NCBI GenBank assembly: GCA_034520565.1
Contig: JAXHNL010000002.1
Span: forward strand, 224,001-288,000
Direction: 5' to 3'
From: Halodesulfurarchaeum sp.
GTDB taxonomy: Archaea > Halobacteriota > Halobacteria > Halobacteriales > Halobacteriaceae
DNA length: 64,000 bases
A program made the translations under genes and the position numbers. The notes under the pieces were generated by a model. That model searched no databases. It was not told the origin of the DNA and saw only the letters and a list, made by a program, of their open reading frames with translations. This document shows, piece by piece, positions 14,882-58,586 of this stretch; position 1 is the stretch's first letter; every line of letters begins with the position of its first letter.

Positions 14882-15024
14882 GTCAGGACCCACGAGTGAG
14901 CAAAGCGATCGAATTGAGCGTCCTGGCGGAGTCCCCGGGAGCGGAGCGACCGGGGGCACGTCAGGACGTCATTCGACTCGCGACGAGCGACGGCGTCGCT
15001 CGTCGCGTGAGCGTGGAAGAATGA
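14882..15024. repeat. tRNA-Arg-associated nested palindromic element
   Basis: 16-bp inverted copy of the tRNA 3' end plus trailer (14959-14974 vs 15019-15034), 13-bp perfect hairpin 14979-15007, direct copy 14919-14931, inverted copy 14882-14889. Confidence 0.8.
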
Positions 15025-15097
15025 CGTCCTGACGGAGATTTGAACTCCGGTCCCTGGCTCCGCAAGCCAGGAGGATGGTCCACTACCCTACCAGGAC
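15025..15097 (-). tRNA. tRNA-Arg(GCG)
   Basis: Cloverleaf GTCCTGG...TCAGGAC-G; anticodon arm CTGGC-TTGCGGA-GCCAG; T loop TTCAAAT. Confidence 0.95.
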
Positions 15098-15193
15098 TCA
15101 CCCTCACTTTGCCCCACGCCGGTATATCCGTTACGGACCTGAGTTCCGACCCAAACGCTGGAATAGCCACCGGCCCTATCCCGGTCATCGACA

Positions 15194-15793
15194 ATGCCTG
15201 TCGACACGCGCGAGGACCCGACTGACGCACACCGCCACCTCCGGGCCGACGACCAGCTGGCAGCCCTCATCGACCGCCACGGCTATCTCGTCCTCCAGCC
15301 CGCTCCGGACCCGTTCCGCCGGCTCGTGAAAGCGATCGCCAGACAGCAGGTCTCGATGGCCTCGGCTGCGGCCACGTGGGAGCGGCTGACCGACGCCTTC
15401 GAGGTCACCCCGGCAGAAATAAAATCCACGGATCCGGCCGCGCTTCAGGACGTCGGGCTCTCGACTGCCAAAAGCGAGTACGTGAAAGCCGCCGCAGAAG
15501 CGTTCGCGGAGCGTGGCTGGTCCCGTGAGGCATTCGAGAACCTGTCCGACGAGGCCGTCATCGAGGAGGTGACCGAAGTCCGGGGGATCGGGCCGTGGAC
15601 CGCGAAGATGTTCCTCCAGTTCGGACTGGGACGCGAGGACGTCTTCCCGGTCGAGGACCTGGGCATTCGCAAGGCTATGCAGAGTCAGTACGGGATCGAG
15701 AGCCGCGGAGAAATGCGCGAGCGTGCCGCCGAATGGGCCCCCTATCGATCGATCGGATCGCTGTACCTCTGGCGAGTGGGCGACGGCACGTGA
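15194..15793 (+). CDS. alkA: DNA-3-methyladenine glycosylase (AlkA, HhH-GPD family)
   Basis: IARQQVS, HhH motif VRGIGPWTA, FPVEDLG, WAPYRS. Confidence 0.9.
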   Translation: MPVDTREDPTDAHRHLRADDQLAALIDRHGYLVLQPAPDPFRRLVKAIARQQVSMASAAATWERLTDAFEVTPAEIKSTDPAALQDVGLSTAKSEYVKAAAEAFAERGWSREAFENLSDEAVIEEVTEVRGIGPWTAKMFLQFGLGREDVFPVEDLGIRKAMQSQYGIESRGEMRERAAEWAPYRSIGSLYLWRVGDGT

Positions 15794-15836
15794 TAAAATG
15801 GGAACGTTTAGACCGCACTGAATCGTGGTGACGGAC

Positions 15837-16238
15837 ATGAGACGTCCGCGTTTCCGTGCGGCCGACGTGGCCCAGCAAGTGGTTGGGGGGCTGTTGTTGG
15901 CTGGCCCGTTCGTCGTCACGGAGGAGGTCTGGGTGCTCGCGGATCAGATGAGCCTTCTGCACACCCTGGTCGCCATAATTGCGGTCGTCGTGGTCGGCTA
16001 CAGCACGCTCTATAAGGCCGACAAGGACCGAGACGTGGAACGCGAGCGAAATTTTCTGGGGATTCCGCTCCGGTTCGTTTCCGTCCTTCTCGTTGCCGTC
16101 GGATCGGTGACGCTTTTGACGTTCGTCCTGGCCGCCCCGCAGACCTTCGGTGCGGATTCGATGACCACCCTCACCGCGATCAGCATCGGGTCGATCTTCT
16201 CGGTGATCGGCGCGGCGGCAGCGGACTCGCTCCTCTGA
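15837..16238 (+). CDS. DUF2391-like small membrane protein
   Basis: QQVVGGLLLAGPFVVTEEVW motif; 4 TM segments. Confidence 0.75.
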   Translation: MRRPRFRAADVAQQVVGGLLLAGPFVVTEEVWVLADQMSLLHTLVAIIAVVVVGYSTLYKADKDRDVERERNFLGIPLRFVSVLLVAVGSVTLLTFVLAAPQTFGADSMTTLTAISIGSIFSVIGAAAADSLL

Positions 16239-16288
16239 GCGGGTCGAAGAAAAGGTTCAAGACCGAACGCGCGGCCTAGTTCAACTCA

Positions 16289-17767
16289 ATGGGCGATATC
16301 GAGACGATCTACGAGGATCTCGACACGGAGGAGGTCTCACTCGAGGAATTCCGCGAGGCAGTCGTTTCCAAGGTCGAGCAGATGGGCGGGCTCGCCGACG
16401 AGGAGACGGCGGCGATGTTGCTCGCCCACGAACTCGACGACGGACAGGTAGAGGGAGTCGCCGACGTGGAACCGGGCATGGAGGAAGTCGCCATCACCGC
16501 AAAGGTCCTCAGCGTCGGGGAGTTACGGACCTTCGAGCGTGACGACCCCGACCAACCCGACGGACAGGTACTCAACGCCGACGTGGCCGACGAGACCGGC
16601 CGGCTCCGGGTCTCCTTCTGGGACGAAATGGCCAGTTCGGCCGACTCGGAACTCGAGGAGGGACAGGTACTAAACCTGAAGGGGCGGCCCAAGGAGGGCT
16701 ACGACGGCGTCGAGCTGTCCGTCGATCGGGTCGAACCCGATCCGGACACCGAGATCGAGGTCGACCTCACTGACGAGTACCGCGTGGCCGACCTGGGCCT
16801 CGGAGCCTCGGACGTGAATCTTATCGGGGAGGTGCTTGCCACCGAACCGGTTCGGACCTTCGACCGGGACGACGGCAGCGAAGGCAAGGTTTCGAACCTC
16901 CTCGTCGGGGACGAGACGGGCCGGGTCCGGGTCACCCTCTGGGACGAGCAGGCCGACCGGACCGAGGACTTCACGGCTCACGACACCGTCGAGGTCATCG
17001 ACGGCTACGTCCGCGAACGGGACGGCTCGCTCGAACTCCATCTGGGGGACCGGGGAGCGATCGGGGAGAGCGACGCCGAGGTGGGCTACGTTCCGGACGC
17101 CACGCCGATCGAAGCCGTCGAACTCGACGAGACGGTCGACATCGCTGGAGTCGTCCGCTCCGCGGACCCGAAGCGGACCTTCGACCGGGACGACGGCACC
17201 GAGGGGCAGGTCCGGAACGTCCGCGTGCAGGACGAGACTGACGACATCCGGGTCGCGCTCTGGGGCGAGAAAGCTGACCTCGAACTCGGACCGGGAGACG
17301 AGGTCCTCTTCGTCGACGTCGCCATTCAGGACGGGTGGCAAGACGACCTCGAGGCCTCTGCAAACTGGCAGACGACCGTCGTCCCGCTCGAGGACGGTAT
17401 CGACACCGACCTCGATTCTGGGGAAGACGTGTCAGATACTGGGCTCTCGGCCTTTGGCGACGTTGATGGCGATTCCGCCGGCGCGGAGTCGACGTCTGCG
17501 ACCGGCCTGGAAGATGGACCGACGAGCGAGCCAAGTCCCGGGCCGGAAGCGGTCGATCCGAAATCGGAAACTGCGGACCCGGAATCCGTCGAGTTCACGG
17601 GCGTCGTCGTCCAGGCCGGGAACCCGATCATCCTCGACGACGGCGAACAGACGGTAACGATTCAGTCCGATCTCGACGTCGAACTCGGGGAGGAACTCAC
17701 AGTGGCCGGCCAACTCACAGAGGGTATTCTCGATCCCGAACGGGTCGAAACTGACGGAAAGGATTAA
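16289..17767 (+). CDS. rpa: Replication protein A (multi-OB-fold ssDNA-binding protein)
   Basis: Three repeats of RTFxRDDG..GxV..DETGxxRVxxW; N-terminal MGGLADEETAAML; adjacent to histone and cca. Confidence 0.92.
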   Translation: MGDIETIYEDLDTEEVSLEEFREAVVSKVEQMGGLADEETAAMLLAHELDDGQVEGVADVEPGMEEVAITAKVLSVGELRTFERDDPDQPDGQVLNADVADETGRLRVSFWDEMASSADSELEEGQVLNLKGRPKEGYDGVELSVDRVEPDPDTEIEVDLTDEYRVADLGLGASDVNLIGEVLATEPVRTFDRDDGSEGKVSNLLVGDETGRVRVTLWDEQADRTEDFTAHDTVEVIDGYVRERDGSLELHLGDRGAIGESDAEVGYVPDATPIEAVELDETVDIAGVVRSADPKRTFDRDDGTEGQVRNVRVQDETDDIRVALWGEKADLELGPGDEVLFVDVAIQDGWQDDLEASANWQTTVVPLEDGIDTDLDSGEDVSDTGLSAFGDVDGDSAGAESTSATGLEDGPTSEPSPGPEAVDPKSETADPESVEFTGVVVQAGNPIILDDGEQTVTIQSDLDVELGEELTVAGQLTEGILDPERVETDGKD

Positions 17768-17793
17768 GCCGGTCACCGCCGGGGTTTGGGGAT

Positions 17794-18225
17794 ATGCGAG
17801 TCGAGCTTCCGTTTTCTCCCGTCGATTCGATCATCCGGGAACAGACGGGGGACCTCCGGGTCAGCGCGGACGCCGCAGGGGCACTGGCCCGCCAGATCCA
17901 GAACGACGGCGCCGAGATTGCCGGAAAAGCGGCCCAGCACACCGAAGCAGCCGGTCGCAAAACCATCATGGTCGAGGACTTCGGGGCCGTCGAGGTCCCG
18001 ACGCGTGATTCGCTGACGCTTCCGGTCGCGCCGATCGACCGGATCGCCCGGCTCGACGTCGACGACCGGTTCCGGGTGGCCGAAGACGCCCGACTGGCGC
18101 TGGCCAAACTCCTCGAGGACCGGGCGGCCGAGATCGCCGCCGGCGCGCGAGACCTCGCGGAACACGCCGGCCGGCGGACGATTCAGGCCGAGGACATCGA
18201 ACTATTCGTCGATCTCTGTTCGTAA
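17794..18225 (+). CDS. hstA: Haloarchaeal tandem (double) histone-fold protein
   Basis: Two histone folds: ELPFSPV..RVS..GRKTIMVEDF and LPVAPI..RVA..AGRRTIQAEDI. Confidence 0.92.
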   Translation: MRVELPFSPVDSIIREQTGDLRVSADAAGALARQIQNDGAEIAGKAAQHTEAAGRKTIMVEDFGAVEVPTRDSLTLPVAPIDRIARLDVDDRFRVAEDARLALAKLLEDRAAEIAAGARDLAEHAGRRTIQAEDIELFVDLCS

Positions 18226-19581
18226 CCGGGGACTCGGGTCGAAGTACGCGGCGAGTTCCCGACCGAAGTCCGCCGCCAGTTCCGCCACGTCAGCGCCGGC
18301 GAGGACGGTGTATCCAGCCTCCAGCGCGGGCTCGATTTGGGCCCCGAGGGCCACGTCGAGGAGTCGGTTTTCGACGAAGTTCTCGGCACTCGTCGTCTCC
18401 CGCTCTCGCTCGACGACGTACCGGTCCGCCTCGATGAACGGACCGGTCGCCGATCCGTCGGCGTAGGTCTCGTAGAACCGCCTGGCGTGCTCGGCAGCGT
18501 AAACAGGGGGACCCTCGTGACGCTCGATCGCCGGGAGCTCCGCGACGGCCAGTTCGACGAACAGGGCCGCATCGTCGCGAGCCCACGTCGCACTCCGGAG
18601 CACCTCGAAGTCCGCGTTTTCCAGACCGCGGACCAGTCCCGTGAGCGAACGTCTGAGCTGGGGATAGAGTTGGTCGTCGACCAGATCGGGCGGGTCGAAG
18701 ACGACGGCGATTGGAGTGGTTTCCCGCTCGGTGACTGCCGTCCGAACCGCTTCCCTGTCCATCGATTCGGGTTCCAGCGGGAAGAAGTAGTCCAGCTCCG
18801 GGGTGGCGAGGAACTGACGGGCGAAGTGGACGAGCCGGGCGACGTTTTCGGCGGCGACGACCGCGGCGACGTTCCGCTCGGGATCGGTCGGGTCGACGAC
18901 GACGAGTGGATCCTCGAAGCTGACTGTCCCGTGGTCGGCCGGGTCGAGATGGACCGGCGGGTGCCAGTCCTGGGCCGCCGCCAGCGTCTCCCGGAAGCCA
19001 CCGTATTCGAGGACGAGGAGTTCGGCGATGTAACCCGAGTAGCCCCGCGTCCGGAGATCGCTGCCGTAGGCACCGACACCCTTGAGGAACTGCTTGAAGC
19101 GTCTCACTTCGGCGGCCACCGAATCGTCGAGTCGTTCGACGAGGTAGGCATTGTGAAACGGGGTTCGGTCGACGGCCGATTGGATCTCCGTGGCGGCGTC
19201 GACGTCATAGCAGGGAACGAGATCGACGGCAAACCCGTCGAACTCGCCAGTCACGTAGGGGTGCTCGGCGTACTCCAGATGGCCTTCGGGGAGTACGGCC
19301 CGCCCCACCTGCAGGCCGTAGCGTTCGAGGTCCTCGCGGGGGAGGTCCGGATCGAACTGGACGAACACGTCGATGTCTCGATCACCGCTCACCCAGGTCC
19401 CCCGGGCGGTCGAGCCCACGTGAAGAGGGGTGGCGTCGACCTCGAGATCGGCGATCGCGGATTCCGTCCGCTGGAGAAGTGACTCGACTGCTGCTTCGAG
19501 GGCGGCTCGCTCCGCCGGATCCGGGTCCACCCGCTCGCCGACGCGTTCGAGCACCGCTTCGTACCCGCTCCCGGTCGTCAT
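18202..19581 (-). CDS. cca: CCA tRNA nucleotidyltransferase (class I)
   Basis: VGSTARGTW..DIDVF, YAEHPY, SAVDRTPFH, DPTDPERNVAA. Confidence 0.95.
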   Translation of the reverse strand: MTTGSGYEAVLERVGERVDPDPAERAALEAAVESLLQRTESAIADLEVDATPLHVGSTARGTWVSGDRDIDVFVQFDPDLPREDLERYGLQVGRAVLPEGHLEYAEHPYVTGEFDGFAVDLVPCYDVDAATEIQSAVDRTPFHNAYLVERLDDSVAAEVRRFKQFLKGVGAYGSDLRTRGYSGYIAELLVLEYGGFRETLAAAQDWHPPVHLDPADHGTVSFEDPLVVVDPTDPERNVAAVVAAENVARLVHFARQFLATPELDYFFPLEPESMDREAVRTAVTERETTPIAVVFDPPDLVDDQLYPQLRRSLTGLVRGLENADFEVLRSATWARDDAALFVELAVAELPAIERHEGPPVYAAEHARRFYETYADGSATGPFIEADRYVVERERETTSAENFVENRLLDVALGAQIEPALEAGYTVLAGADVAELAADFGRELAAYFDPSPRLRTEIDE

Positions 19582-19626
19582 ACGGAGCCATTATCGGGGA
19601 TAGCCCGAAAGCATATCGATGGAGGT

Positions 19627-20424
19627 TTAGAGCATCGCAAGCGGCGTCATGACGACGACACCGACGACGATTCCGGCGACGAGTTCGAGGTGGCCGCCCC
19701 GCGGAAGGTCTTCGCCGAGATCGAGTGCCTCCGGGATGAATTCCGTAAGGACGAGATAGACCATCGCGCCTGCGGCGAACCCAAACCCGAACGGCAAAAA
19801 CTCGCGGGCGTAGCGGACGAAGGCAAACGCGAGCACTGCACCGACTGGTTGGGGCAGACTCGAGAAGATCGACCACCAGACCAGCTTCCAGTTCGAGACG
19901 CCCATCGCCCGGAGCGGGATCGAGATCGCGGTGCCCTCCGGGACGTTATGGATCGAGATGGCGACGGTCATGAAGATGGCGAGGATCGGGATCGTAAAGC
20001 CGAGGAACATCGGCCCGGTTCCCAGATTCAGATCCGCGAAGGAGACCCCGACAGCCACGCCCTCTGGAAAGCTGTGGACCGTGAGGATACCGAGTATCAG
20101 GACGAGTTTCTTGAAGTCGGCTTCGGCGTACTCCCGGGGGTCGATTTCGGCATGGGTGATGACCCGGTGGCCCACGATCACGAGGAGCACGCCGACGATC
20201 AATCCCGGAACGATGTCCTGGATCGTCCCCTCGGCCAACCCCTCCTTGAGCAGGCCGAACACGGAGGCGGCCACCATGATCCCCGAGGCCAGGCCCCAGA
20301 GCCCCACGTTCCAGCGGTCGGGGATGTCCTCAGCGAGGAAGAACGGGATGGCGCCCAACCCAGTTGCGAGGGCCGTGATCAGCCCGGCGACGAAGACCAG
20401 CGTCAGATTGGCCAGCAGACTCAT
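19627..20424 (-). CDS. ZIP family metal transporter
   Basis: HSFPEG and HNVPEG metal-site motifs; FAAGAM. Confidence 0.92.
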   Translation of the reverse strand: MSLLANLTLVFVAGLITALATGLGAIPFFLAEDIPDRWNVGLWGLASGIMVAASVFGLLKEGLAEGTIQDIVPGLIVGVLLVIVGHRVITHAEIDPREYAEADFKKLVLILGILTVHSFPEGVAVGVSFADLNLGTGPMFLGFTIPILAIFMTVAISIHNVPEGTAISIPLRAMGVSNWKLVWWSIFSSLPQPVGAVLAFAFVRYAREFLPFGFGFAAGAMVYLVLTEFIPEALDLGEDLPRGGHLELVAGIVVGVVVMTPLAML

Positions 20425-20474
20425 CCGTTGTCCAATCGAATCCGTTCCGCGTAGTTAAAATTTCGGAAGAAAAG

Positions 20475-20503
20475 TTTGTAGAAACTAAATTAGTCTTTCC
20501 TAA
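20475..20503. promoter_or_regulatory. Tandem DtxR/SirR-type operator boxes upstream of the ZIP transporter
   Basis: TTAG-TCTTTC-CTAA (20490-20503) and TTTG-TAGAAA-CTAA (20475-20488). Confidence 0.55.
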
Positions 20504-20625
20504 CTCGAAGATTTTCGAGGCGAACGTGAGCGAGGTCGAGGATTGGTGAACGGGACCGCCAATGGGAAAGTCGTGGCCGGGCGAAACGAAAGCCCTATCA
20601 AAAGTAGCCAAGTACGGTAATCCAG

Positions 20626-20698
20626 GCCGCCGTAGCTCAGCTGGTAGAGCACTCCGCTGTTAACGGAGTTGTCCCAGGTTCGAGCCCTGGCGGCGGCG
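20626..20698 (+). tRNA. tRNA-Asn(GTT)
   Basis: GCCGCCG/CGGCGGC acceptor; anticodon arm CTCCG-CTGTTAA-CGGAG; T loop TTCGAGC. Confidence 0.96.
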
Positions 20699-20747
20699 CT
20701 TCTTTCGAAGGTAACGCTCAAGGCACCGCCAGCGGTAGGACGGGATA

Positions 20748-20822
20748 GGGCCCTTAGCTCAGTCTGGTTAGAGCGCGCGGCTCATAACCGCGTCGTCAGT
20801 GGTTCAAATCCGCTAGGGCCCA
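20748..20822 (+). tRNA. tRNA-Ile2(CAT), agmatidine-modified
   Basis: GGGCCC acceptor typical of tRNA-Ile; anticodon arm CGCGG-CTCATAA-CCGCG; no initiator features. Confidence 0.85.
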
Positions 20823-20829
20823 CATCTCA

Positions 20830-20949
20830 ACGACCTAACCGTCGAGCGACCAGCTTGCTGTGTCGCGAGACGTGAGTCGACGTGATTGGGGAAGCGGATT
20901 TGAGCCCAGGAAACCGAACGGAGTGAGGTTTCCGCTGGTTCAAATCCGC
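20830..20949. repeat. tRNA-Ile2-associated nested palindromic element
   Basis: 21-mer GCGACCAGCTTGCTGTGTCGC (20846-20866), inverted T-arm copy 20893-20906, hairpin 20909-20933, direct T-arm copy 20936-20949. Confidence 0.8.
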
Positions 20950-21009
20950 GAAGGATTAACCCCTCATCCTGCCAGTTTACTTTTCCCCATCCCCCACCTC
21001 GCGTTCACC

Positions 21010-22049
21010 ATGCGCGCAGCCGTCTACCACGGCCCCGGCGAGATCGCCATCGAAGAGGTCCCCAAACCCGAACTCGAATCCCCGAAGGGCGCGCTGATCC
21101 GCGTCACCCACACCGCCATCTGTGGGTCTGATCTCTGGTTCTACCGCGGCCAGACCGACATGGAGGCGGGCGAACGGGTCGGCCACGAACCCATGGGCAT
21201 CGTCGAGGCGGTTGGAGAGGCTGTCACGTCAGTCGAACCGGGGATCGGGTCATCGCCCCCTTCGCCATCAGTTGCGGGGAATGTGAGTTCTGTCGGAAGG
21301 GCCTGTACACCTCCTGCGTCGAGGGAGAATCGTGGGGCGGCACAAACGGCGGCGGACAGGGCGAATACGTCAAAACCCCCTTCGCAGACGGCCATCTCGT
21401 CCGGGTGCCGGATCGCTACGCCGACGACCAGAAGACCCTCGAGAAACTCCTCCCCCTGACCGACGTGCTCGGAACCGGACACCACGCCGCCGTGAGTGCC
21501 GAGGTCGGGCCGGGCGATACGGTCGTGGTCATCGGCGACGGGGCGGTGGGCCTGAGCGGGGTGCTCAGCGCCCAGCGCCTGGGAGCCGAGCGGATCATCG
21601 CCGTGGGCCACCACGAGGATCGACTCGAAATCGCCGAGGCGTTCGGGGCGACCGAGACCGTCGCCGAACGGGGCGAGGCCGCAATCGAGCGGGTCACGGA
21701 ACTCACGTACGGCGGATCGAATCACGTCATGGAGTGTGTCGGGGCGGCCTCGGCGATGGACACCGCGATCGAGGTCGCCAGGCCGGGCGGAACGATCGGC
21801 TACGTGGGTGTCCCCCACGGCGTCGCTGAGGGGGGACTGGACGTCCTCTCACTGTTCCGGGACAACCTCACCCTGCAGGGGGGCGTCGCTCCGGTTCGCC
21901 AGTACGCCGAGGAACTCATGGGGGACATCCTCGGCGGAACCCTCGACCCCTCGCCGATCTTCACGAAACGCGTCGACCTGGAGGGCGTGCCGGAGGGCTA
22001 CGAGGCGATGGACGAACGAGAGGCAATCAAGGTGCTTGTGAAGCCGTAG
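21010..22049 (+). pseudogene. Zinc-dependent MDR alcohol dehydrogenase, frameshifted at about 21240 (possibly a sequencing error)
   Basis: ICGSD and GHE in one frame; CGECEFC...C and GDGAVG in the next; one extra G in the GGGG run restores EPGDRV. Confidence 0.85.
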
Positions 22050-22058
22050 AATCGACTC

Positions 22059-22739
22059 TCACTGGTCGGTGAACGCCTCTATCAGGTCCTGCCCGTCGAC
22101 GTAAGGGATGTCGTGTTTGGCCGCGTAGGCCCGGGCATCGTCGATCGAGAGGGCCTCCCCGGTCTCGTCGTCCAGCATCTCACACACCACGGCCGCCGGG
22201 GGCAGTTGGGCCTCGTGGGCCAGCGCGACGGCCATTTCGGTGTGACCCTTCCGATCCGAGAGACCGTAGCGGGAGGCCCGAAGCAGGTGGACGTGTCCCG
22301 GGGCGCGGAACTCGCGGGGGAAGTCGGTCGATTCGGGATCGGCTGCGGCCTCCCCGAGACGACTGATTGTCAGTGCCCGGTCCTGATCGGTGATCCCGGT
22401 GTAGGTGTCCCGGTGGTTGACGGTAAGCGAGAACGAGGAGCGCTCGTCGTACCCGAGGTGGTCGCTCTCCGCGACCGGGTGGTCGATCTCGTCGGCCAGG
22501 AAGGGCAACTCGAAGGCATCTGCGATCTCCGGGCCCAGCGCGACACAGACCAGTCCGCCCGCGTCGTTTCGCAACTGTGCGACTGCCGGTGGATCGACGG
22601 CCCCGGCCGGGTAGACCATGTCGACTTCTCCCTCGCGGTCGTCGAAGTCGTGGATCAACACCGGCTGGCCGGCCGCAAACGCCGCGACGGCCCGTTCGAC
22701 GCCGGTCGCCCCCCGGGAAGCTTCACGCTGACTCGACAT
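22059..22739 (-). CDS. ribB: 3,4-dihydroxy-2-butanone-4-phosphate synthase
   Basis: DREGEVD, TGITDQDRALT, APGHVHLL, GHTE, CEMLD. Confidence 0.95.
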   Translation of the reverse strand: MSSQREASRGATGVERAVAAFAAGQPVLIHDFDDREGEVDMVYPAGAVDPPAVAQLRNDAGGLVCVALGPEIADAFELPFLADEIDHPVAESDHLGYDERSSFSLTVNHRDTYTGITDQDRALTISRLGEAAADPESTDFPREFRAPGHVHLLRASRYGLSDRKGHTEMAVALAHEAQLPPAAVVCEMLDDETGEALSIDDARAYAAKHDIPYVDGQDLIEAFTDQ

Positions 22740-23430
22740 TCACACTCACCTCGTCACCGTCGAGCAGGCCCAGTTCGTCCCGGATGCGTTCGGGAGCGAT
22801 GATCTCGAGTTCCTCGGCGTCGTGGTGGGTCCGATCGGGCACGATGACGTGGCCCCCGTCGAAGGAGTGGCCCGTGTCGGATTCGATGCTGGCCGGATAG
22901 CAAGTCGCCCCGCCGTAGGTGCGCTCCTCGTCCTCCCACTCGTCGATGTGGATCCCCTCGAGAGCGGCCAGAATCGAGCGCTCGCGCTTGCTCGTGGCCG
23001 TGAGGCTGACGTTGAGCGTGCCCGGGTACGGATCATAACCCAGCTTTTCCTCGAACTGAACCTTGTAGCCCGGGAGCGTGACGTAGTGGCGGCCCTCGCC
23101 CATGCCCGTGGTGATCTCACCGCGCAGCACGACCGTGCCCTTCGCCTCGAAGATGGCCCGGTAATCCTCGTATTCGGTCCTGAGCACCTCGATTCCGCGC
23201 TCCGTGAGCTCGACGAACTGGCCGTCTCCGACCGTCTCCCTGGTGATGCAATCCGCGTCCTCCAGCGCCTGAAGGCGCCGAGAGGCAGTCTGGTTCGAGA
23301 CGTCGAGATCCGCGGCGACCTCGGCCCCAGATATTTTCACCTTCCCGCGATGGCCCCCGTCGAGGGCCAGGAGTTTCAGGACGGCGAGTTCGTCAAAGCC
23401 GACGGCGAGACTGCCGGCGTCGACAACCAT
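22723..23430 (-). CDS. ribK: CTP-dependent riboflavin kinase with N-terminal winged HTH (RbkR)
   Basis: HTH SNQTASRRL; GMGEGRHY, PYPGTLN, PDRTHH. Confidence 0.93.
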   Translation of the reverse strand: MVVDAGSLAVGFDELAVLKLLALDGGHRGKVKISGAEVAADLDVSNQTASRRLQALEDADCITRETVGDGQFVELTERGIEVLRTEYEDYRAIFEAKGTVVLRGEITTGMGEGRHYVTLPGYKVQFEEKLGYDPYPGTLNVSLTATSKRERSILAALEGIHIDEWEDEERTYGGATCYPASIESDTGHSFDGGHVIVPDRTHHDAEELEIIAPERIRDELGLLDGDEVSVNVESA

Positions 23431-23462
23431 GCCCCGAGTTTGGCCCGTGGCCCGGATAAGGA

Positions 23463-23526
23463 TACCGGATTTGGGATGGTTCTCAAATTTGAGACGGGGT
23501 GGCGGCCAACGAATCCCGCTTTGGGA
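23463..23526. promoter_or_regulatory. Candidate RbkR operator array
   Basis: Perfect palindrome TCTCAAATTTGAGA (23481-23494) flanked by related 14-mers at 23463-23476 and 23513-23526. Confidence 0.55.
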
Positions 23527-23547
23527 AACGGTACGCGGTGCAACCAG

Positions 23548-24477
23548 CTACTCACCGGGTCCAGCCAGCTCCGGGACCATCGTTTCCGGGTCTTTCGCGA
23601 GCATCGCCACGTTCGAGGGCGGTGCCTCGCGGAATTCCCCGAAGGCCGGAAGGTGGTCCTGGACCGAGCGGGCGAACTCGACCACCTCCTCGTGGTCCGG
23701 CATCGCGTCCCGGTCCAGGCGATCACGGGACGTGCCGACGTGCATGTACCCCTTGATCTCGATGAAGTCGGGGTCAGCCTGCTCGTACCGGGCCGCGTAG
23801 CCGGCCGGATCTTCCATATTTTCGCCGGCGACGAGAGTTGTCCGGATCGTGGTCCGACTTTCGTGGGTTCGGAGCACGTCCAGGGACTCCATTAGGTCCT
23901 CCCAGGCGGTTTTCTCGCGGGGGCGGACCACCGCGTCGTAGGTCCTCCGGTCTGGGGCGTCGAGGCTCACGTAGAGCTGGGTGGGACTGGCATCCCGGAG
24001 CACGTCAGGTCGGGTCCCGTTGCTCACGAGAAAGGTGGTGAAATCCCGGTCGTGGTAGGCCTCGATCAGTTCCGGGAGAAGGGGGTAAAGCGTGGGTTCG
24101 CCGTCGAGGCTGATCGCGACGTGCTTGGGGTCGAGGGCATCGTCCAGCCGCGACTCGGGGACGTCGTCGTTGCCGCCGAAGCCCGCGAGGAGTTCCCGCT
24201 GGAGTTCGATCGACGCGTCGACGACGGCCTCGGGGTCCTGCCAGTCGGTTTCATCGAGTTCGTAGGCGTGGCCCGCGTGGTCGCGCCAGCAGAAGACACA
24301 GCGCTCGTTGCACCGGATGATGGGCGTCATCTGGATACATCGGTGGGACTGGATGCCGTAGAAACGATGCTTGTAACAGGTGCCCTCTCCCCGGAGGGCG
24401 TTTTTCGTCCACCCGCAGGTCTGGACGGCCGTGTGACCGATCGTATGGTAGTTCGGTCCCGAGACCTGCTGGGTCAT
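23548..24477 (-). CDS. taw1: 4-demethylwyosine synthase TYW1/Taw1 (radical SAM)
   Basis: HTAVQTCGWT, CYK..YGIQSHRC, CNERCVFCWR, ISLDGEPT; start at 24477. Confidence 0.93.
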   Translation of the reverse strand: MTQQVSGPNYHTIGHTAVQTCGWTKNALRGEGTCYKHRFYGIQSHRCIQMTPIIRCNERCVFCWRDHAGHAYELDETDWQDPEAVVDASIELQRELLAGFGGNDDVPESRLDDALDPKHVAISLDGEPTLYPLLPELIEAYHDRDFTTFLVSNGTRPDVLRDASPTQLYVSLDAPDRRTYDAVVRPREKTAWEDLMESLDVLRTHESRTTIRTTLVAGENMEDPAGYAARYEQADPDFIEIKGYMHVGTSRDRLDRDAMPDHEEVVEFARSVQDHLPAFGEFREAPPSNVAMLAKDPETMVPELAGPGE

Positions 24478-24577
24478 CGCCCGCGCTTGGCGATGAACGG
24501 GCAAAAGAATGGTGCTCCCGGCGAGTGCACGGACGGCATGCAGAACCCCTATAGGCCGTGGCCGACACCCAACGCGT

Positions 24578-26332: not shown

Positions 26333-26356
26333 CCCCGCGAAAATCGCCGCCCCGTT

Positions 26357-27580: not shown

Positions 27581-27626
27581 TAGTGTGGTTTCCGCGTTTC
27601 CAACCTTAAAGGGTTGGGGCACGGCT

Positions 27627-48321: not shown

Positions 48322-48496
48322 GTCCCTTGATTCGATGCCCCTGCTCAAAAACGATGCGGAGACTCCGGCCGCGCTTTGATCCTTCCACGTGAAACAGTCC
48401 CACCGCTCACCTGGCGAAAACCGACAGGGGGCGGAACGCCAATCGCCATCGAACCAATGGAAAGGACTTTGAGCGTCGGCAAGCCACAATGTACCA

Positions 48497-49564: not shown

Positions 49565-49610
49565 GCGGATTTCGCAAGGATTTAGCGCGGATGGCGGGTA
49601 GCCCAAGTCG

Positions 49611-51391: not shown

Positions 51392-51449
51392 GTGGGTTCC
51401 GGAGCCTGGCTCGCAATTCGTTTAAAGCGCCAGCGCAAACGTCCGGTAA

Positions 51450-52340: not shown

Positions 52341-52342
52341 AA

Positions 52343-53431: not shown

Positions 53432-53598
53432 CGGGCGACTCTACGGGTGGGTTCGGGTAAGAACCTTCGGCCCGAAGCCGATTGGACAGGCCGGCCGGAC
53501 GGGAGCAGACGGCAAGTCCGAACCGACGGTTCGAGGACCTCCTCGGCCCGAGCACCGCTACCGGGCCGCTTTTGGGGCATCGTCTCCAAACCCGGCCA

Positions 53599-54594: not shown

Positions 54595-54621
54595 ATCGGG
54601 GACGACGGAAAGAAAATCGGA

Positions 54622-55671
54622 TCAGAAGATCGTCGCATCCCGGTAGACGGAGATGCCCTCGTTGGTGATCTCGTAGGGTTTCGTCTCCCGGGCGTGATTC
54701 GCGTCTCGGATCTTCTGGATCTCCACGGCCAGACGGGTCTCCTGGAAGTCCTCCGGTCGGATGTACTGGAGGATGAAGACGCCGTCGGTGAGGTACTCGA
54801 TGATCCCGAAGCGGGACGCATACGCCGTCTCCGAGGAGGCCTCGCTCGTCACCAGGGTCGTGACGCCAGCCTCCTTCAGCGAGCGGGCGAAGTCGTAAAT
54901 CTCGGTCCGGCGGGTGGCCTGCTCGTCGTACATCATCTCGAGCAGCGACACCGAGTCGAGTGCCAACCGTTCGGCCCCGAAGTTTTCGACGAGCCGGGGC
55001 AGTTCGCTCCGGATGCTCGTCAGACTGTTTGCCATGTCCACGGGGTCCAGATCGAGAATAGCCAGGTCCCCGTCGGCTTCCGCGCCTTCGAAATCCCAGC
55101 CTTTCTGCTGGGCGCTCTTGTAGATCCGTTCCCGGCTCTCCTCGAGCGTGATGTACACCCCCTTTTCACCCGATTCGAGGGCCCCCTGGATGAACTGGAG
55201 GGCGAAGGTCGTCTTGCCCGTGCCGGCCCCACCGATGACCGCAAGTAGCGAGCGTTCCGGAATTCCCTCCTGGATCATCGCGTCCAGACCCTCGATACCG
55301 ATCTTCAGGCGGGGGATTTCGGCATGATAAGTCTCCTCCTCGAAGCCGCTTGCATCCCCGCCCATGTCGAACCCGAAGCTCTCGCCCTCGTCGAGGTCGA
55401 TATCGAGGGGCGCTTCGCCCTCCTCGAATTGCTGGGAGTCGACCGGTTCACCGCCCGTCCCGGTTTCGGGCTCGGTTTCGGGTTCCTCGCCTGCCGGACT
55501 GGGCCCCGGATCCGCCCCAGCGCCGGTGTCCGATTCGGCCGCGTCCTCCAGTTCCGCCATGGCTGCCTCCCAGTCTGAATCTTCTTCCTCCGGTCGGTCC
55601 TCGTCCTCCGTGGACTCGTCAACCGCCCGCTCGAACCAGTCTCGTTTTTCGTCCTCGTCGTCTTCAGCCAT
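54622..55671 (-). CDS. Single-domain KaiC-like ATPase with acidic N-terminal region
   Basis: GGAGTGKTT, TLEE, LDSVS, EYLTDG, QKIRD; start at 55671. Confidence 0.9.
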   Translation of the reverse strand: MAEDDEDEKRDWFERAVDESTEDEDRPEEEDSDWEAAMAELEDAAESDTGAGADPGPSPAGEEPETEPETGTGGEPVDSQQFEEGEAPLDIDLDEGESFGFDMGGDASGFEEETYHAEIPRLKIGIEGLDAMIQEGIPERSLLAVIGGAGTGKTTFALQFIQGALESGEKGVYITLEESRERIYKSAQQKGWDFEGAEADGDLAILDLDPVDMANSLTSIRSELPRLVENFGAERLALDSVSLLEMMYDEQATRRTEIYDFARSLKEAGVTTLVTSEASSETAYASRFGIIEYLTDGVFILQYIRPEDFQETRLAVEIQKIRDANHARETKPYEITNEGISVYRDATIF

Positions 55672-55804
55672 GTCCCGAGGTCTCCTTCGTTTTCCCTCCG
55701 GCTGGTTCGCCCAAGTACCTTTCCCGTCTTTTGTGGCTTCGGGTGATCCCGTTGCGGTCGGAACGGGTGGCGCCATTTTTGTAGCGGCGGCCCACACTCC
55801 CGGT

Positions 55805-56626
55805 ATGATCGTGGGAATCGTCGCCCAGCGGGACAACGAGCGGGCCGTCGATCTCGCCGCAGCGGTCGCGGATCGACTCACAGCGGGGGACACGACCGTT
55901 CGATGTGACGAGCGGACGGCCGGGGAGATCGGAATCGCGGGCTGTCCCGTCGACGAAATGAACGAGTGTGATCTGGTCGTCTCGATCGGCGGGGACGGAA
56001 CGTTCCTGTTCGCCGCTCGCGGGCCCGGGTCGACGCCGGTCCTGGGGGTCAACCTCGGGGAAGTCGGTTTTCTCAACACCGTCTCACCCGATAACGCCGT
56101 CGAGACCGTCGAGCAGGAGGTCGGCCAGTTCCGGGAGACGGGGACCATCAGTCACCGGGAGGTGCCGCGGGTCCAGCTCGCCGGTCCGAACTGGGCACTC
56201 TCGCCTGCGCTCAACGAGGTACTCGTGCAGGGCCACCGCCGCGGCCACGCCGACGGTCTCGATATGGAGATCTGGGTCGACGGGTCGACGTACGATTCGT
56301 TTCACGGCGACGGCCTGCTCGTGGCGACGCCGACGGGAAGCACGGCGTACAATCTCAGCGAAGGCGGCCCGCTCGTCCATCCCCGGATTGACGGCTTCGT
56401 GGTGACACCCATGGCCGGACGGGAGGCGATGCCGCCCTTGCTGATCCCGGGAAACGCCGACATCGAGATCGACGTCTCGGGTGCGGAGACGGCGGTCGTC
56501 ACGAGCGACGGATCGGAGCACCGCGAGATCACGCCACCGACAACAGTCACCGTTTCCGCGGCCGAGCCGGCGAAGGTGGCCGGACCGGGGGCGGCGTTCT
56601 TCGAGGCGCTTGGCAAGCTGGAGTGA
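55805..56626 (+). CDS. nadK: NAD(+) kinase
   Basis: [29 protein letters not shown]. Confidence 0.93.
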
Positions 56627-56687
56627 TCGGAGCCCGTTCGACCGCAATGGAAAGGGTAAACGTGGGGAGTCCCCAAGCGGGGGACAC

Positions 56688-57620
56688 ATGAGTCACGAGC
56701 TTCCGGACGTGCAGGCGTCCGAGCCGGACGTAACCGTGGGACTCGAACGGGTCGGTGTCACCGGGGTCGAAAAACTCGTCAAGATCGGCCGCACGAGCGG
56801 TCGACCGCTCGTGTTGATGGCCGAGTTCGAGGTTTACGTCGACCTGCCCCGCGGGCGCAAGGGGCTGGACATGTCCCGGAACATGGAGGTCATCGACGAG
56901 ACCCTCGAGGACGCGGTGAGCGAGCCCATTTATCGGGTCGAAGAGATGTGTGGCGAAGTCGCCGAACGCCTCCTCCAGAAACACGAGTACACCACGAAGG
57001 CGATGGTCAAAATGGAAGCCGAGTACATGATTCGGGACGAGACGCCCGCCACCGAGCGTCCGACCCAGGGTCACGTGGACTTCCTCGCGAGCGCCACGGC
57101 CATGGAGGGCGAGGAAACCCGCGAGGAGATCGGCGCTCGGGTCACCGGCATGACCGTCTGCCCGTGTTCGCAGGGCATGATGGAAGAACGCGCCCGCGAG
57201 AAACTCGAAGATCTCGAGGTCGATCCGGTTGCAGTCGACGAGTTCCTCGATGAAGTCCCCCAGGCCGGCCACTCCCAGCGCGGCCATGCCACGTTGACTG
57301 TCGAAGCGCCCAGCGACCCGGAAGTCGACTTCCGGGACCTCGTCGAAATCGCCCGTGACGCCATGAGCGCCCGCATCTACAACATGGCAAAGCGGCCGGA
57401 CGAGGACCACATGACCTACCAGGCTCACGTCCACGCCCGCTTCGTCGAGGACTGTGTCCGATCGATGGCCGAGCAGGTCGTCGACACCTGTGATACCGTC
57501 GACGACGACGCGATCATCACGATGAAACAGGAAAACGAGGAGTCGATTCACCAGCACGACGCCCACGCCGAGCGGATCGCCGCGATGGGCGACCTGCGAG
57601 AGGAAGTCAACGGCGACTGA
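56688..57620 (+). CDS. mptA: GTP cyclohydrolase MptA (FolE2 family)
   Basis: [41 protein letters not shown]. Confidence 0.94.
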
Positions 57621-57692
57621 TCGTACGGGACCGATCCGGTCCTCCCGAAACGGGGCCGAAGGGTTATACCGACCAGGACGCTACGAACAGCC

Positions 57693-58265
57693 ATGTTGCG
57701 ATGGCTGTTGCTGGGGTTGTTGCTTATTCCCCTCGCCGACATCGCCTTGCTGGTGGTCGTCGCCGGGTCGATCGGGTGGGTGCCGACGGTCGCGCTGGTC
57801 GTCCTGACGGCCTTGCTCGGAATGCTCTTCGTCCGGGCCGAGGGCCGGCACACGCTCGGGAAGATCCAGCAGTCTCTCGCTCGCGGGGACCTGCCGACGA
57901 ATCAGGTGATCGACGGGGGCCTGCTCATCGCCGCCGGGGCCTTTCTCCTCACGCCGGGACTGGTCACGGACGCGGTCGGCTTCCTGATCGCCGTCCCGAT
58001 CACGCGCATTCCGATCAGAGTTCTGCTCAAACGCTACGTCATTACGCCAGCGATCGACCGCCAGACCGGTGGGTTCGCCACCGGTCGAATTTACATGGAC
58101 GGGTTCCCCAGCGATGGGAGTCCTGGCAACGGCCCGACCGGGCCGGGCGGCCCCCGAACACCCGGACCGGACCCGAACGGTGGGGCTGGCGGATCCGGTC
58201 AGGGGACGACCGTCGATCTGGGGCCCGAGGACTACGACGTGTCGGTCGAGGACGAGCGGTCGTGA
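57693..58265 (+). CDS. fxsA: FxsA family membrane protein
   Basis: LLIPLADI..., LLTPGLVTDAVG; Gly/Pro-rich tail. Confidence 0.88.
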   Translation: MLRWLLLGLLLIPLADIALLVVVAGSIGWVPTVALVVLTALLGMLFVRAEGRHTLGKIQQSLARGDLPTNQVIDGGLLIAAGAFLLTPGLVTDAVGFLIAVPITRIPIRVLLKRYVITPAIDRQTGGFATGRIYMDGFPSDGSPGNGPTGPGGPRTPGPDPNGGAGGSGQGTTVDLGPEDYDVSVEDERS

Positions 58266-58346
58266 GTCGGTTTTTTCCCTCGAAACACCTCGCCTGCAGT
58301 CGAAAGGAAACCCTTTTAGTCGGCAGCGGGCAATCCGCAGTTGTCA

Positions 58347-58420
58347 GGGCCAGTAGCTCAATTAGGTAGAGCGCCACTCTGATAAGGTGGAGGCTTGCGG
58401 TTCAAATCCGCACTGGCCCA
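58347..58420 (+). tRNA. tRNA-Ile(GAT)
   Basis: GGGCCAG/CTGGCCC acceptor; anticodon arm CCACT-CTGATAA-GGTGG; T loop TTCAAAT; upstream BRE/TATA-like GAAACCCTTTTAG. Confidence 0.96.
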
Positions 58421-58586
58421 CTTCTGGATGACTCAAACCAGGAAGCGACCAGCTTGCTGTGTCGCTTCCTGTTTGATCAGCGGTCTGAAGTGGGTGCTGC
58501 GGATTTGAACCCGGAAGACGTAGCCCGCGAAGCCGAACGAAGTGAGGCGAGCAGGACCGTCTTCATTCGGTTCAAAATCGCACTGG
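58421..58586. repeat. tRNA-Ile(GAT)-associated nested palindromic element
   Basis: Same 21-mer (58445-58465) as at 20846; inverted tRNA copies 58487-58494 and 58498-58511; direct 17/19 copy 58568-58586. Confidence 0.8.

What the first reader, a model, noticed from the sequence alone, without database searches (positions are those of the whole stretch)
14882..58586. Family of tRNA-3'-end-templated nested palindromic elements behind three tRNA genes
Seen: tRNA-Arg, tRNA-Ile2 and tRNA-Ile(GAT) are each followed by about 120-170 bp with the same layout: tRNA 3' end, hairpin A, inverted copy of that tRNA's own 3' sequence, hairpin B, then a direct copy again. The copied arms match the adjacent tRNA (Arg: CGTCAGGACGTCATTC; Ile: GGTTCAAATCCGC). 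The hairpin modules are shared between loci: an identical 21-mer GCGACCAGCTTGCTGTGTCGC at 20846 and 58445, and an 11-nt cap GARCGRAGYGA at all three. No transposase or integrase gene is nearby. Inference: a non-autonomous element or module system that targets tRNA 3' ends and incorporates target sequence into its own arms (REP/BIME-like or template-switch mechanism), or a structured pre-tRNA trailer able to pair with the T arm/acceptor stem and affect processing. I do not know of a description of this architecture, but cannot exclude one.
Basis: partly seen in the sequence, partly recalled or inferred. Interest (0 to 1): 0.78.

Follow-up and report, generated by a model that had tools for sequence, protein, structure and literature searches.

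The report
Hairpin cassettes behind haloarchaeal tRNA genes
The three loci are copies of a small, gene-less, double-hairpin DNA module that sits behind about half of the tRNA genes of nearly all salt-loving archaea (Halobacteria), each copy ending in a duplicate of that tRNA's own tail, and it seems not to have been described in print.

Summary
All three tRNAs are followed by hairpin A, an inverted T-loop or 3'-end copy (I), hairpin B, then a direct copy (D) of the tRNA tail.

It is not local. In this genome a covariance model of I-B-D finds 32 sites. Thirty lie within 376 nt downstream of 19 of 44 tRNAs, on the same strand. The other two lie behind islands inserted in a further tRNA. The model hits 145 of 150 good Halobacteria genomes and none outside that class in the phylum sample.

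D matches the neighbouring tRNA (90% identity). Only the T-loop part of I tracks the tRNA; its acceptor part barely does. Hairpin B shows compensatory changes and has subfamilies about 85% or more alike across genera and tRNA types. Arrays vary from 0 to 4 units between species of one genus. Integrase islands insert into any D copy.

Best reading (about 0.5): cassette-like DNA modules gained, lost and shuffled by recombination at the repeated tRNA tail, perhaps as folded single strands like integron attC or CTX-phage attP. No recombinase was identified and I could not test transcription.

The scan met this family before on other DNA (e1-2533367, e1-3073899, e1-3558573).

The parts
15025..15097 (-). 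tRNA-Arg(GCG); its last bases plus trailer (15019-15037) are the master copy D1
14977..15009 (-). Arg unit, hairpin A (near-perfect palindrome)
14959..14974 (-). Arg unit, inverted copy I1 of acceptor 3' strand plus trailer (GAATGACGTCCTGACG)
14933..14956 (-). Arg unit, hairpin B; its cap GAGCGGAGCGA (14939-14949) reads on the + strand, inverted relative to the tRNA
14911..14931 (-). Arg unit, direct copy D2 (T-stem 3' side, acceptor and trailer, with mismatches)
14838..14891 (-). Arg locus, weaker second round: I2 (14882-14891), hairpin (14853-14876), D3 (14838-14850)
   Evidence: The unit is kept in genus relatives at 74-99% identity
tRNA-Asn upstream (20626-20699) has no unit
20838..20873 (+). 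Ile2 unit, hairpin A with the shared 21-mer (20846-20866)
20883..20960 (+). Ile2 unit, I-B-D module: I 20894-20906, hairpin B 20907-20937 (cap 20916-20926), D2 core 20937-20949
   Evidence: model R1 hit G000:C2:244883-244960, E 7e-9; fold
58347..58421 (+). tRNA-Ile(GAT); D1 = 58399-58420
58433..58476 (+). Ile(GAT) unit, hairpin A with the shared 21-mer (58445-58465)
58488..58592 (+). Ile(GAT) unit, I-B-D module: I 58490-58511, hairpin B 58513-58564 (cap 58535-58545), decayed D2 58569-58588
   Evidence: model R1 hit G000:C2:282488-282592, E 1.4e-9. The orthologous unit in G010 has a perfect D2

Best explanation
What it is: three members of a Halobacteria-wide family of small (about 80-180 bp), gene-less DNA modules that sit directly behind tRNA genes.

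A typical unit has four parts:
- a T-rich trailer with hairpin A;
- an inverted copy of the T-loop (I);
- hairpin B, with a 5-bp stem, conserved unpaired bases and a GA-flanked G-N-A mini-hairpin cap;
- a direct copy (D) of the tRNA from the T-loop to the last base.
The Arg unit is a second type, which copies only the T-stem 3' side, acceptor and trailer.

How it most likely works (inferred): units behave as cassettes bounded by D copies. A unit enters at the tRNA T-loop and brings its own replacement tail (D1), while the original tail is pushed downstream (D2). Repeats of this, together with recombination between D copies and between I and D, build, shrink and reshuffle arrays.

The I-B-D palindrome would be the unit's attachment site, used as a folded single strand that mimics the double-stranded T-loop region. 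This is the logic of integron attC sites and the CTX-phage attP hairpin.

A side effect that is shown: every D copy is a further landing site for integrase-bearing islands.
For: SHOWN
1. Strict tRNA linkage. There are 32 distinct model sites in the genome. Thirty lie 28-376 nt downstream of 19 of 44 ARAGORN tRNAs, and the better-scoring strand always equals the tRNA strand. The other 2 carry the tail of an intron-containing tRNA and lie behind two inserted islands.
2. Distribution. 145 of 150 Halobacteria genomes of at least 95% completeness have hits, in 54 of 57 genera. In the phylum sample every hit falls in the five families that also make up the Halobacteria class sample (f1, f2, f6, f12, f13); the 22 other families gave none.
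3. D matches its own tRNA: mean identity 90%, and at most 1 mismatch in 39 of 52. D ends at the tRNA's last base; the trailers after D1 and D2 are only 37.5% alike in 44 loci. That is expected if identity is kept only where it must rebuild the tRNA.
4. Structure. 93.8% of cells pair in stem s1, and 5 of 7 pairs change on both sides. The covariation score is 0.268 against 0.133 in shuffles, and 0 of 500 shuffles reach it.
5. Turnover. At the orthologous Ile2 locus there are 1 to 4 units in five genus members. G011 has two extra units on the tRNA side of the unit it shares with G000. At tRNA-Ile(GAT), B is replaced between I and D in G007 compared with G010.
6. Spread between tRNAs and genera. 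B subfamilies clustered at 85% identity or more recur at different tRNAs in different named genera. Within the genome, Val(CAC) u1 and Val(GAC) u2 are 97.9% identical over 142 nt. The I-B part of the Arg(CCG) and Ser(TGA) units is 96.8% identical over 63 nt.
7. Islands with a tyrosine integrase and a 13-nt identity block lie between D copies.

INFERRED
- The folding strand. The sense strand folds better in 49 of 61 I-B-D modules and 52 of 61 A regions. At pair 22-80 there are 7 G-U pairs and no A-C mismatch among 28 sequences.
Against: - No recombinase is assigned. The integrases seen in this genome use a 13-nt block, not the 22-24-nt D. Their closest homologues in other genera mostly have no unit beside them.
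- No Y1 transposase and no reverse transcriptase was found, but the genome is only 80.7% complete.
- No free, circular, viral or small-plasmid copy was found. The phage collection gave no hit, and the plasmid collection gave 2 hits, both on megaplasmids and both tRNA-linked.
- A unit that enters a different tRNA would have to bring a matching tail. How the arms get re-matched is not explained.
- Near-universal presence across a whole class, fixed orientation and strong sequence conservation of hairpin B fit a host function just as well.
- The excess of G-U over A-C is weak overall: 53 against 44 in I-B-D folds, and 47 G-U against 60 A-C in the outer arm.
Confidence: 0.5

Rival explanations
1. 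Host-function reading. The units are transcribed as read-through tails of the tRNA and act at the RNA level: as back-up terminators or insulators, as 3'-processing signals, or as tRNA-end mimics. They are inherited vertically and kept uniform by selection.
For: - Nearly universal in the class.
- Orientation is always that of the tRNA.
- The purine-rich caps lie on the sense strand and the sense strand folds better.
- There is covariation.
- Orthologous units are kept at 74-99% identity in the genus.
- Two RNA 3' ends were reported downstream of a Haloferax tRNA-Pro gene (PMC7237163, passages).
- Earlier scan note e1-2533367 says the tails are transcribed (not checked here).
Against: - A hairpin needs no exact copy of the tRNA tail, yet D is 90% identical.
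- The acceptor-like helix a tRNA mimic would need is not kept: 40-60% of cells pair in the outer arm, and 6.0 of 12 against 5.3 in mismatched pairings.
- 25 of 44 tRNAs have no model hit in this genome, although some of those, such as tRNA-Arg(GCG), carry a unit the model does not see. Copy number varies from 0 to 4 between relatives.
- The T-rich stretch right after the tRNA, which is the archaeal stop signal, lies before most of the unit.
- No Rfam family matches.
Confidence: 0.22
2. No dedicated machinery. A palindromic repeat with T-loop-like arms lies behind tRNA genes. Ordinary unequal crossing-over, gene conversion and transfer between species through the highly conserved tRNA gene then create, homogenise and spread the units.
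For: - Some arrays repeat the trailer and hairpin A as well, as tandem duplication predicts: Ser(TGA) u1/u2 and Leu(TAG) u1/u3, and the G010 Ile(GAT) locus.
- G000's Ile2 unit equals G008's two units minus the stretch between their two I copies.
- The last D of some arrays lacks the matching acceptor part, for example Ile2 in the window.
Against: - In 44 loci with a matching D2 the trailers after D1 and D2 are unrelated (37.5% identity). Tandem duplication would copy them.
- The shared arms between different tRNAs are only about 11 nt, which is short for homologous exchange.
- This reading does not explain why hairpin B keeps conserved unpaired bases across genera.
Confidence: 0.15
3. Scars of larger elements. 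Each unit is what is left of the attachment region of an integrated virus or plasmid after the body was lost.
For: - Islands with tyrosine integrases sit at these same tRNA tails.
- Identity blocks that run from inside the tRNA to its end are the signature of such integration (Williams 2002, as cited in the passages of PMC8371274 seen).
Against: - The islands' own junctions show a 13-nt block and no I-B hairpin.
- Of the 29 integrase homologues from other genomes whose 3' flank was read, I noted a unit next to the gene only at L048, and a partial one at L042.
- 32 scars trimmed to the same architecture in one genome is implausible.
Confidence: 0.08
4. Template-switch palindromes. Hairpins next to the tRNA extend their stems by copying flanking sequence during replication, giving inverted and then direct copies.
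For: - The layout alternates direct, inverted and direct copies around two hairpins.
- Pairing is perfect next to the base of hairpin B and fades outward.
Against: - D2 would be copied from I, yet D2 is far closer to the tRNA than I is.
- The inverted copy is best matched far from hairpin A, not next to it.
- The boundaries are the same in all tRNAs and genera.
Confidence: 0.05

Closest known systems
Integration of genetic elements into tRNA genes by tyrosine integrases (T-loop and 3'-end sublocations; Williams 2002, as cited in PMC8371274, passages seen)
   Same: - A direct repeat of the tRNA runs from an internal point to its last base.
- The intact gene is rebuilt on the tRNA side.
- Tandem insertions occur.
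- In this genome, real integrase islands use the same tails.
   Different: - The units are about 80-180 bp and carry no gene.
- They have a conserved hairpin with an inverted T-loop copy next to the repeat.
- They occur at about half of all tRNA genes.
- No matching integrase was identified.
Integron gene cassettes with attC sites, and the folded attP hairpin of CTX phage (recalled from my own knowledge, not from a call)
   Same: - An imperfect palindrome has arms that pair to mimic the double-stranded target.
- Unpaired bases are conserved and the tip is variable.
- Arrays are ordered and differ between close relatives, with new units at the end next to the target.
- One strand folds better.
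   Different: - No integron-type integrase sits next to the arrays, and there are many arrays per genome instead of one.
- Cassettes hold no ORF.
- The core is GGTTCRAATCC, not GTTRRRY.
- Folding as single-stranded DNA is not shown.
REP/BIME and REPIN elements with RAYT transposases
   Same: Short non-coding hairpin repeats in many copies, built as mosaics of modules.
   Different: - These units are strictly behind tRNA genes and in one orientation.
- They carry a copy of the neighbouring gene.
- No Y1/RAYT gene was found.
The 178-bp repeats behind the E. coli tyrT tRNA-Tyr genes (RtT RNA, Rfam RF00391; recalled, and named in earlier scan notes e1-4800053 and e1-3558573)
   Same: Tandem non-coding units behind a tRNA gene, each containing a copy of the tRNA 3' end.
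   Different: - Different sequence and structure: no Rfam family other than tRNA reached its gathering score in the window or gave a credible match on 7 related loci.
- RtT is one locus in enterobacteria, whereas this is a class-wide family at most kinds of tRNA.
Mobile or repeat-derived insertions in archaeal tRNA T-loops (non-canonical introns; leads from earlier scan notes e1-4439646 and e1-2031521; literature recalled)
   Same: One copy of the I-B module lies inside the T arm of a tRNA-Cys-like gene on a Haloarcula plasmid.
   Different: - Normal units lie after a complete tRNA.
- I saw no bulge-helix-bulge splice motif at the junctions of that copy in its fold.

Membership tests
tRNA-targeting tyrosine-integrase elements | Direct repeat of the tRNA from the crossover point to the gene's 3' end, flanking the inserted DNA | tested here: met
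   D copies of up to 24-25 nt. Identity stops at the last tRNA base.
tRNA-targeting tyrosine-integrase elements | An integrase gene in the element or a demonstrable integrase acting in trans | tested here: not met
   The units carry no ORF. The four Phage_integrase loci of the genome lie elsewhere; two of them lie in islands read here, and those islands use a 13-nt block. A trans-acting enzyme cannot be tested with these tools.
Integron cassettes / attC | Core sites R'' RYYYAAC and R' GTTRRRY pairing in a folded strand | tested here: not met
   The arms are GGATTYGARCC and GGTTCRAATCC. They share GTT...AAC, but position 4 is C, not a purine.
Integron cassettes / attC | IntI-type integrase and attI next to a single array | tested here: not met
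   Arrays lie at 19 or more tRNA genes with no adjacent integrase.
Integron cassettes / attC | Recombination of the folded single strand | not testable with these tools
   There is only indirect strand asymmetry.
REP/BIME-REPIN | Dispersed extragenic copies and a RAYT (Y1) transposase in the genome | tested here: not met
   32 of 32 sites are tRNA-linked. There is no PF01797 hit in a genome that is 80.7% complete.
IS200/IS605-derived palindromic elements (PATE type) | Ends shared with a resident IS200/IS605 element | not tested
   Three TnpB-type ORFs exist far from the units. Their ends were not compared with the units. No TnpA was found.
RtT RNA (RF00391) | Match to the Rfam model | tested here: not met
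   Scans of the window (gathering threshold) and of 7 related loci (E up to 1) listed no RtT match.
Archaeal tRNA introns | Bulge-helix-bulge motif at both junctions, inside the tRNA | tested here: not met
   Units lie after complete tRNAs. For the one internal copy (L190:2427-2569) I saw no such motif at the junctions when reading the fold by eye.

The most novel reading that the evidence does not exclude
Halobacteria carry an integron-like system without an integron. The T-loop of almost any tRNA gene serves as the docking site. ORF-less hairpin cassettes are cut out and inserted as folded single strands, with the I-B-D hairpin playing the part of attC, by a recombinase encoded elsewhere in the genome. 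The stacked tRNA tails that result then act as a ladder of landing pads that steers viruses and islands away from the working tRNA.
Probability: 0.2. Interest if true: 0.85.

Novelty: new variant of a known kind. Interest (0 to 1): 0.7.

Why it matters
If these units are recombination cassettes, they are a very abundant and unannotated class of mobile DNA in a well-studied group of archaea. They would extend folded-hairpin recombination from integrons and CTX-type phages to tRNA genes.

They also multiply the attachment sites for viruses and islands, so they bear on how genomic islands pile up at tRNA genes.

If instead they are transcribed and functional, they are an unknown layer of tRNA gene expression in Halobacteria.

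There is a practical side too. In the genus MAGs, several contigs start or end at or just after the tRNA in these loci, possibly because of these repeats, and the units can be mistaken for prophage scars. Haloferax volcanii is genetically tractable; an earlier scan note, not checked here, says it carries them. So the question is directly testable.

Tried and rejected
- RNA evidence: no RNA holder was listed for window 14000-23900, so transcription was not tested.
- Relatives of the island integrase in viral contigs: none found with that query.
- Phage collection: no match to the module.
- Rfam: nothing but tRNA.
- Unit as part of the islands' own attachment region: rejected. Closest integrase homologues in other genera mostly show only a 13-nt tail copy and no hairpin, and the islands' left junctions lack hairpin A.
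- tRNA-intron reading: rejected. I saw no bulge-helix-bulge motif when reading the fold of the one internal copy.
- Retro-element reading: no RVT_1 hit. The inverted copy in the Arg unit includes trailer bases (GAA) and no CCA complement, so it was copied from DNA and not from mature tRNA.
- Template switching as the main process: rejected, because D2 is closer to the tRNA than I is.
- tRNA minihelix mimic: weakened by poor pairing of the outer arm.
- G-U excess as proof of RNA: too weak.
- Cap-motif count in the window: not above chance by number.
- Literature: six searches and passages of PMC3119063, PMC7714728, PMC8371274, PMC12558985 and PMC7237163 gave no description of the modules.
- One paper I could not read: Hoelzle et al. 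[quoted passage not shown] I saw it only as a reference. From recall of its abstract, it lists 47 tRNA-like elements that might overlap with these units.
- Supplementary files of papers were not opened.


Full report
**1. The observation**

The shared 21-mer is exact at 20846 and 58445, with none expected by chance.

The 11-nt cap occurs three times against 1.1 expected, and 10 of 100 shuffles reach three. Its number is therefore not significant. Its place, the loop of hairpin B in all three loci, is what counts.

- The Arg cap lies on the strand opposite to its tRNA.
- The Ile2 direct copy covers only the T-loop and T-stem.
- The Ile(GAT) direct copy is decayed.
- The Arg unit copies the T-stem 3' side, acceptor and trailer but not the T-loop.

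**2. The genome**

The window lies in a 1.86-Mb, two-contig assembly with 62% G+C, estimated 80.7% complete. Of the 44 tRNAs that ARAGORN calls, a few look doubtful. Among these 44, 21 have a direct copy of at least 13 nt of their own tail within 400 nt downstream, against 2 upstream.

The copies are periodic. An inverted piece lies at about +40 to +95 and a direct copy of up to 24-25 nt at about +80 to +145. Several loci have a second or third round.

A covariance model (R1) built from 28 I-B-D modules of named haloarchaeal records finds 32 distinct sites in this genome. Thirty lie 28-376 nt downstream of 19 tRNAs, and the better-scoring strand is always the tRNA's strand. The other two carry the tail of an intron-containing tRNA that ARAGORN missed, and lie behind two islands inserted there. 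No site lies elsewhere. The Arg(GCG) unit is not found by this model, which fits its different build.

**3. Anatomy**

A typical unit starts with a T-rich trailer that forms the 5' arm of hairpin A. Next comes a short linker, then I (GGATTYGARCC), which is the reverse complement of the T-loop region. Hairpin B follows, and then D: GGTTCRAATCC followed by the T-stem 3' side and the acceptor 3' strand.

Hairpin B has a stem of 5 bp, a U-U mismatch, two C-G pairs, an internal loop with conserved bases, an inner stem and a cap. The cap is a 2-bp, G-N-A-loop mini-hairpin flanked by tandem G-A mismatches.

On the 28-sequence alignment the stated structure pairs in 78% of cells against 69% in shuffles (0 of 500 reach it). 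The covariation score is 0.268 against 0.133, and slid controls give 0.06-0.11. The 5-bp stem region pairs in 93.8% of cells, and 5 of 7 pairs change on both sides.

**4. Which parts follow the tRNA**

In 52 modules from other genomes, the 11-13 nt after the T-loop in D are 90% identical to the neighbouring tRNA's tail, with at most one mismatch in 39 of them.

The T-loop part of I also follows the tRNA.
- The pair that distinguishes TTCAAAT from TTCGAAT co-varies: UA in 18 and CG in 10 of 28 sequences, with none unpaired.
- The unusual T-loop of tRNA-Pro(CGG) is mirrored in its I.

The outer part of I, opposite the acceptor strand, pairs in only 6.0 of 12 positions, against 5.3 in mismatched pairings (p = 0.001). 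Within this genome the inverted match scores 10.7 for the unit's own tRNA against 7.8 for other tRNAs. The Arg locus in the window and tRNA-Gly(GCC) are among them.

D ends at the last base of the tRNA. In 44 loci with a matching D, the six bases after D1 and after D2 are only 37.5% alike.

**5. Distribution**

By my count of the record titles, about 62 of the 80 listed loci come from haloarchaea of many genera. In 52 of the 80 the module lies within 200 nt downstream of an ARAGORN tRNA on the same strand. The same pattern hits 208 of 300 good Halobacteria genomes, and the reversed control hits none.

The model R1 hits 145 of 150 genomes of at least 95% completeness, in 54 of 57 genera. Most genomes have 5 to 27 matches, and only 27 candidates were scored per genome. 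In a phylum-wide sample of 151 genomes (150 plus this one), every hit falls in the five families that also appear in the Halobacteria class sample. The 22 other families gave none.

A few pattern hits in other lineages show the same layout with unrelated hairpins: a Nanoarchaeota MAG (L074) and an Acidimicrobiia MAG (L126). Earlier notes of this scan report look-alikes in CPR bacteria and DPANN archaea. I did not test those.

**6. Evolution**

Hairpin B falls into subfamilies that recur at different tRNAs in different named genera. One 47-48-nt form differs at only a few positions (1 to 4) behind tRNA-Arg(TCT) and tRNA-Gly(TCC) in two Halorubrum records and behind tRNA-Asp in Halosimplex. It also occurs, somewhat more changed, behind tRNA-Val(TAC) and tRNA-Glu(CTC) here.

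Within this genome:
- Val(CAC) u1 and Val(GAC) u2 are 97.9% identical over 142 nt.
- The I-B part of the Arg(CCG) and Ser(TGA) units is 96.8% identical over 63 nt.
- The whole Leu(GAG) and Val(GAC) units are 82% identical over 129 nt, while their arms match their own tRNAs.

At orthologous loci in the genus the units turn over.
- Ile2 has one unit in G000, two in G008, two and a half in G011, and three and a half in G010. The single G000 unit corresponds to the most distal one of G011, so the extra units lie on the tRNA side. G000's unit equals G008's two units minus the stretch between their two I copies.
- At Ile(GAT), G000 and G010 share the whole unit at about 86% identity. That is more than the 76% of the longer aligned stretch that includes the flanking gene. 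G007 has another hairpin B between the same I and D, and G011 and G003 have unrelated sequence after the tRNA.
- The Arg unit is kept in eight relatives at 74-99% identity.
- In several of the MAGs, contigs start or end at or just after the tRNA in these loci.

**7. Integrases**

The genome has Phage_integrase hits at four loci, three TnpB-type ORFs, no Y1 transposase and no reverse transcriptase. None of these lies in the window.

Three tRNAs have islands between D copies.
- The intron-containing tRNA near C2:516,900 is followed by a 9-kb island that ends in an intact 380-aa integrase. A 13-nt copy of the tRNA tail, a unit and a full D follow. Then comes a 4.6-kb island with a truncated integrase and the same ending.
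- tRNA-Arg(TCG) has a unit, then an AT-rich 8-kb island, then a 13-nt tail copy.
- tRNA-Pro(CGG) has a 20-kb island with a broken integrase, a 13-14-nt tail copy, a unit and a D.

So the islands use a 13-nt block and enter at any D. I read the 3' flank of 29 integrase homologues from other genomes. In the closest ones the flank shows only the short tail copy, and I noted a unit only at L048, with a partial one at L042. The units are therefore not part of the islands' attachment region.

**8. Reading**

Any explanation has to cover these facts:
- a copy of the tRNA tail that runs exactly from the T-loop to the last base;
- a conserved, oriented hairpin joined in register to that copy;
- an inverted copy of the T-loop;
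- tandem arrays that differ between close relatives;
- the same hairpins at many different tRNAs and genera.

An identity block that starts inside the tRNA and stops at its end is what integration into a tRNA gene leaves. The incoming DNA must rebuild the gene and is free to differ beyond it.

The inverted T-loop copy has no role in a double-stranded attachment site. It makes sense if the site is used as a folded single strand whose stem imitates the double-stranded target, as in integron attC sites and the CTX-phage attP (recalled). The fixed strand of the caps and the better folding of the sense strand fit this but do not prove it: 49 of 61 and 52 of 61, with 7 G-U pairs and no A-C mismatch at one arm position.

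I give this cassette reading about 0.5. That the thing is a real, class-wide, tRNA-linked module family is close to certain. That it moves by site-specific recombination at the T-loop, as a folded strand, is inference.

Its main weaknesses are these:
- There is no candidate enzyme.
- No free copy was found. The phage collection gave none, and the plasmid collection gave two megaplasmid hits, both next to tRNAs.
- How the arms become matched to a new tRNA is unexplained.

**9. Rivals**

*Host function at the RNA level (0.22).* It fits the universality, orientation and conservation. A published Haloferax 3'-end map reports two ends behind a tRNA-Pro gene (passages). It does not explain why D must equal the tRNA tail while the helix a tRNA mimic would need is not kept, nor the copy-number variation.

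*Ordinary recombination without special machinery (0.15).* It explains arrays that repeat trailer and hairpin A, but not the unrelated trailers at 44 loci.

*Scars of larger elements (0.08) and template switching (0.05).* Both are disfavoured.

**10. Comparison and novelty**

The units work most like miniature integrative elements, with an attC-like site. They fail the membership tests for integrons, REP/RAYT, RtT and tRNA introns (see the table).

Six literature searches and passages of five papers gave no description. One paper that may overlap (Hoelzle et al. 2012) could not be read, and supplements were not opened.

The scan has met the same haloarchaeal family before on other DNA, with differing readings:
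- e1-2533367 in Haloferax volcanii;
- e1-3073899;
- e1-3558573, which read it as RtT-like and not mobile.

I rate it a new variant of a known kind, with interest 0.7.

Noticed in passing
G000:C2:516,860-531,000 (outside the window; locus L037): An intron-containing tRNA that ARAGORN missed is followed by two tandem islands. The first is 9 kb with an intact 380-aa tyrosine integrase. The second is 4.6 kb with only the integrase's C-terminal end. Each ends with the same conserved 45 nt, a 13-nt tRNA tail copy, a hairpin unit and a full tail copy. AT-rich foreign DNA follows.
   Followed up: partly
L190 (Haloarcula halophila plasmid NZ_CP119561.1, 237653-242714), esp. 2427-2569: A cluster of 22 ARAGORN tRNA genes lies about 60 nt upstream of a TROVE (Ro60-like) gene on a 363-kb plasmid. 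Between tRNA-Asn and tRNA-Glu lies a tRNA-Cys-like gene (Rfam tRNA, 36.9 bits over 143 nt) whose T arm is interrupted by an I-B hairpin module, with no first tail copy.
   Followed up: partly
window 14838-15024, and loci L072, L075, L084; G000 Arg(CCG) second unit: A second unit type: about 60-105 nt with hairpins, ending in a copy of only the T-stem 3' side plus acceptor (11-13 nt in the cleanest copies), the same kind of block the integrase islands use. In the copies I read closely (window Arg unit, L072, G000 Arg(CCG) u2) the hairpin cap is inverted relative to the tRNA. The Arg unit's copy also takes in trailer bases. It often follows a type-I unit.
   Followed up: partly
G000:C2:355,930 and 762,606; C2:1,394,950-1,395,100; C2:1,364,600-1,367,900 and 1,392,480: Other repeated hairpins with the same GAGCGAAGCGAG-type cap occur away from tRNAs. 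One small array lies about 1.2 kb from a TnpB-type ORF (C2:1,396,256). Whether they share a mechanism with the tRNA units is open.
   Followed up: no
G000:C2:1,669,570-1,677,400 (L038): An AT-rich 8-kb island lies behind the tRNA-Arg(TCG) unit, bounded by tail copies, with no Phage_integrase hit.
   Followed up: no
Relatives G005, G008, G009, G011 (loci L014, L018, L198, L200 and others): Contigs of short-read MAGs often start or end in the tRNA or its first unit, so these repeats may break assemblies and may be under-counted in MAGs.
   Followed up: no
Distal D copies in G000 (Lys(TTT), His, Pro(TGG) arrays): Distal tail copies often carry a changed T-loop, usually with one extra base (TTCACAAT, TTCAACAT, TTCAACTT), while the acceptor part stays intact.
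   Followed up: no
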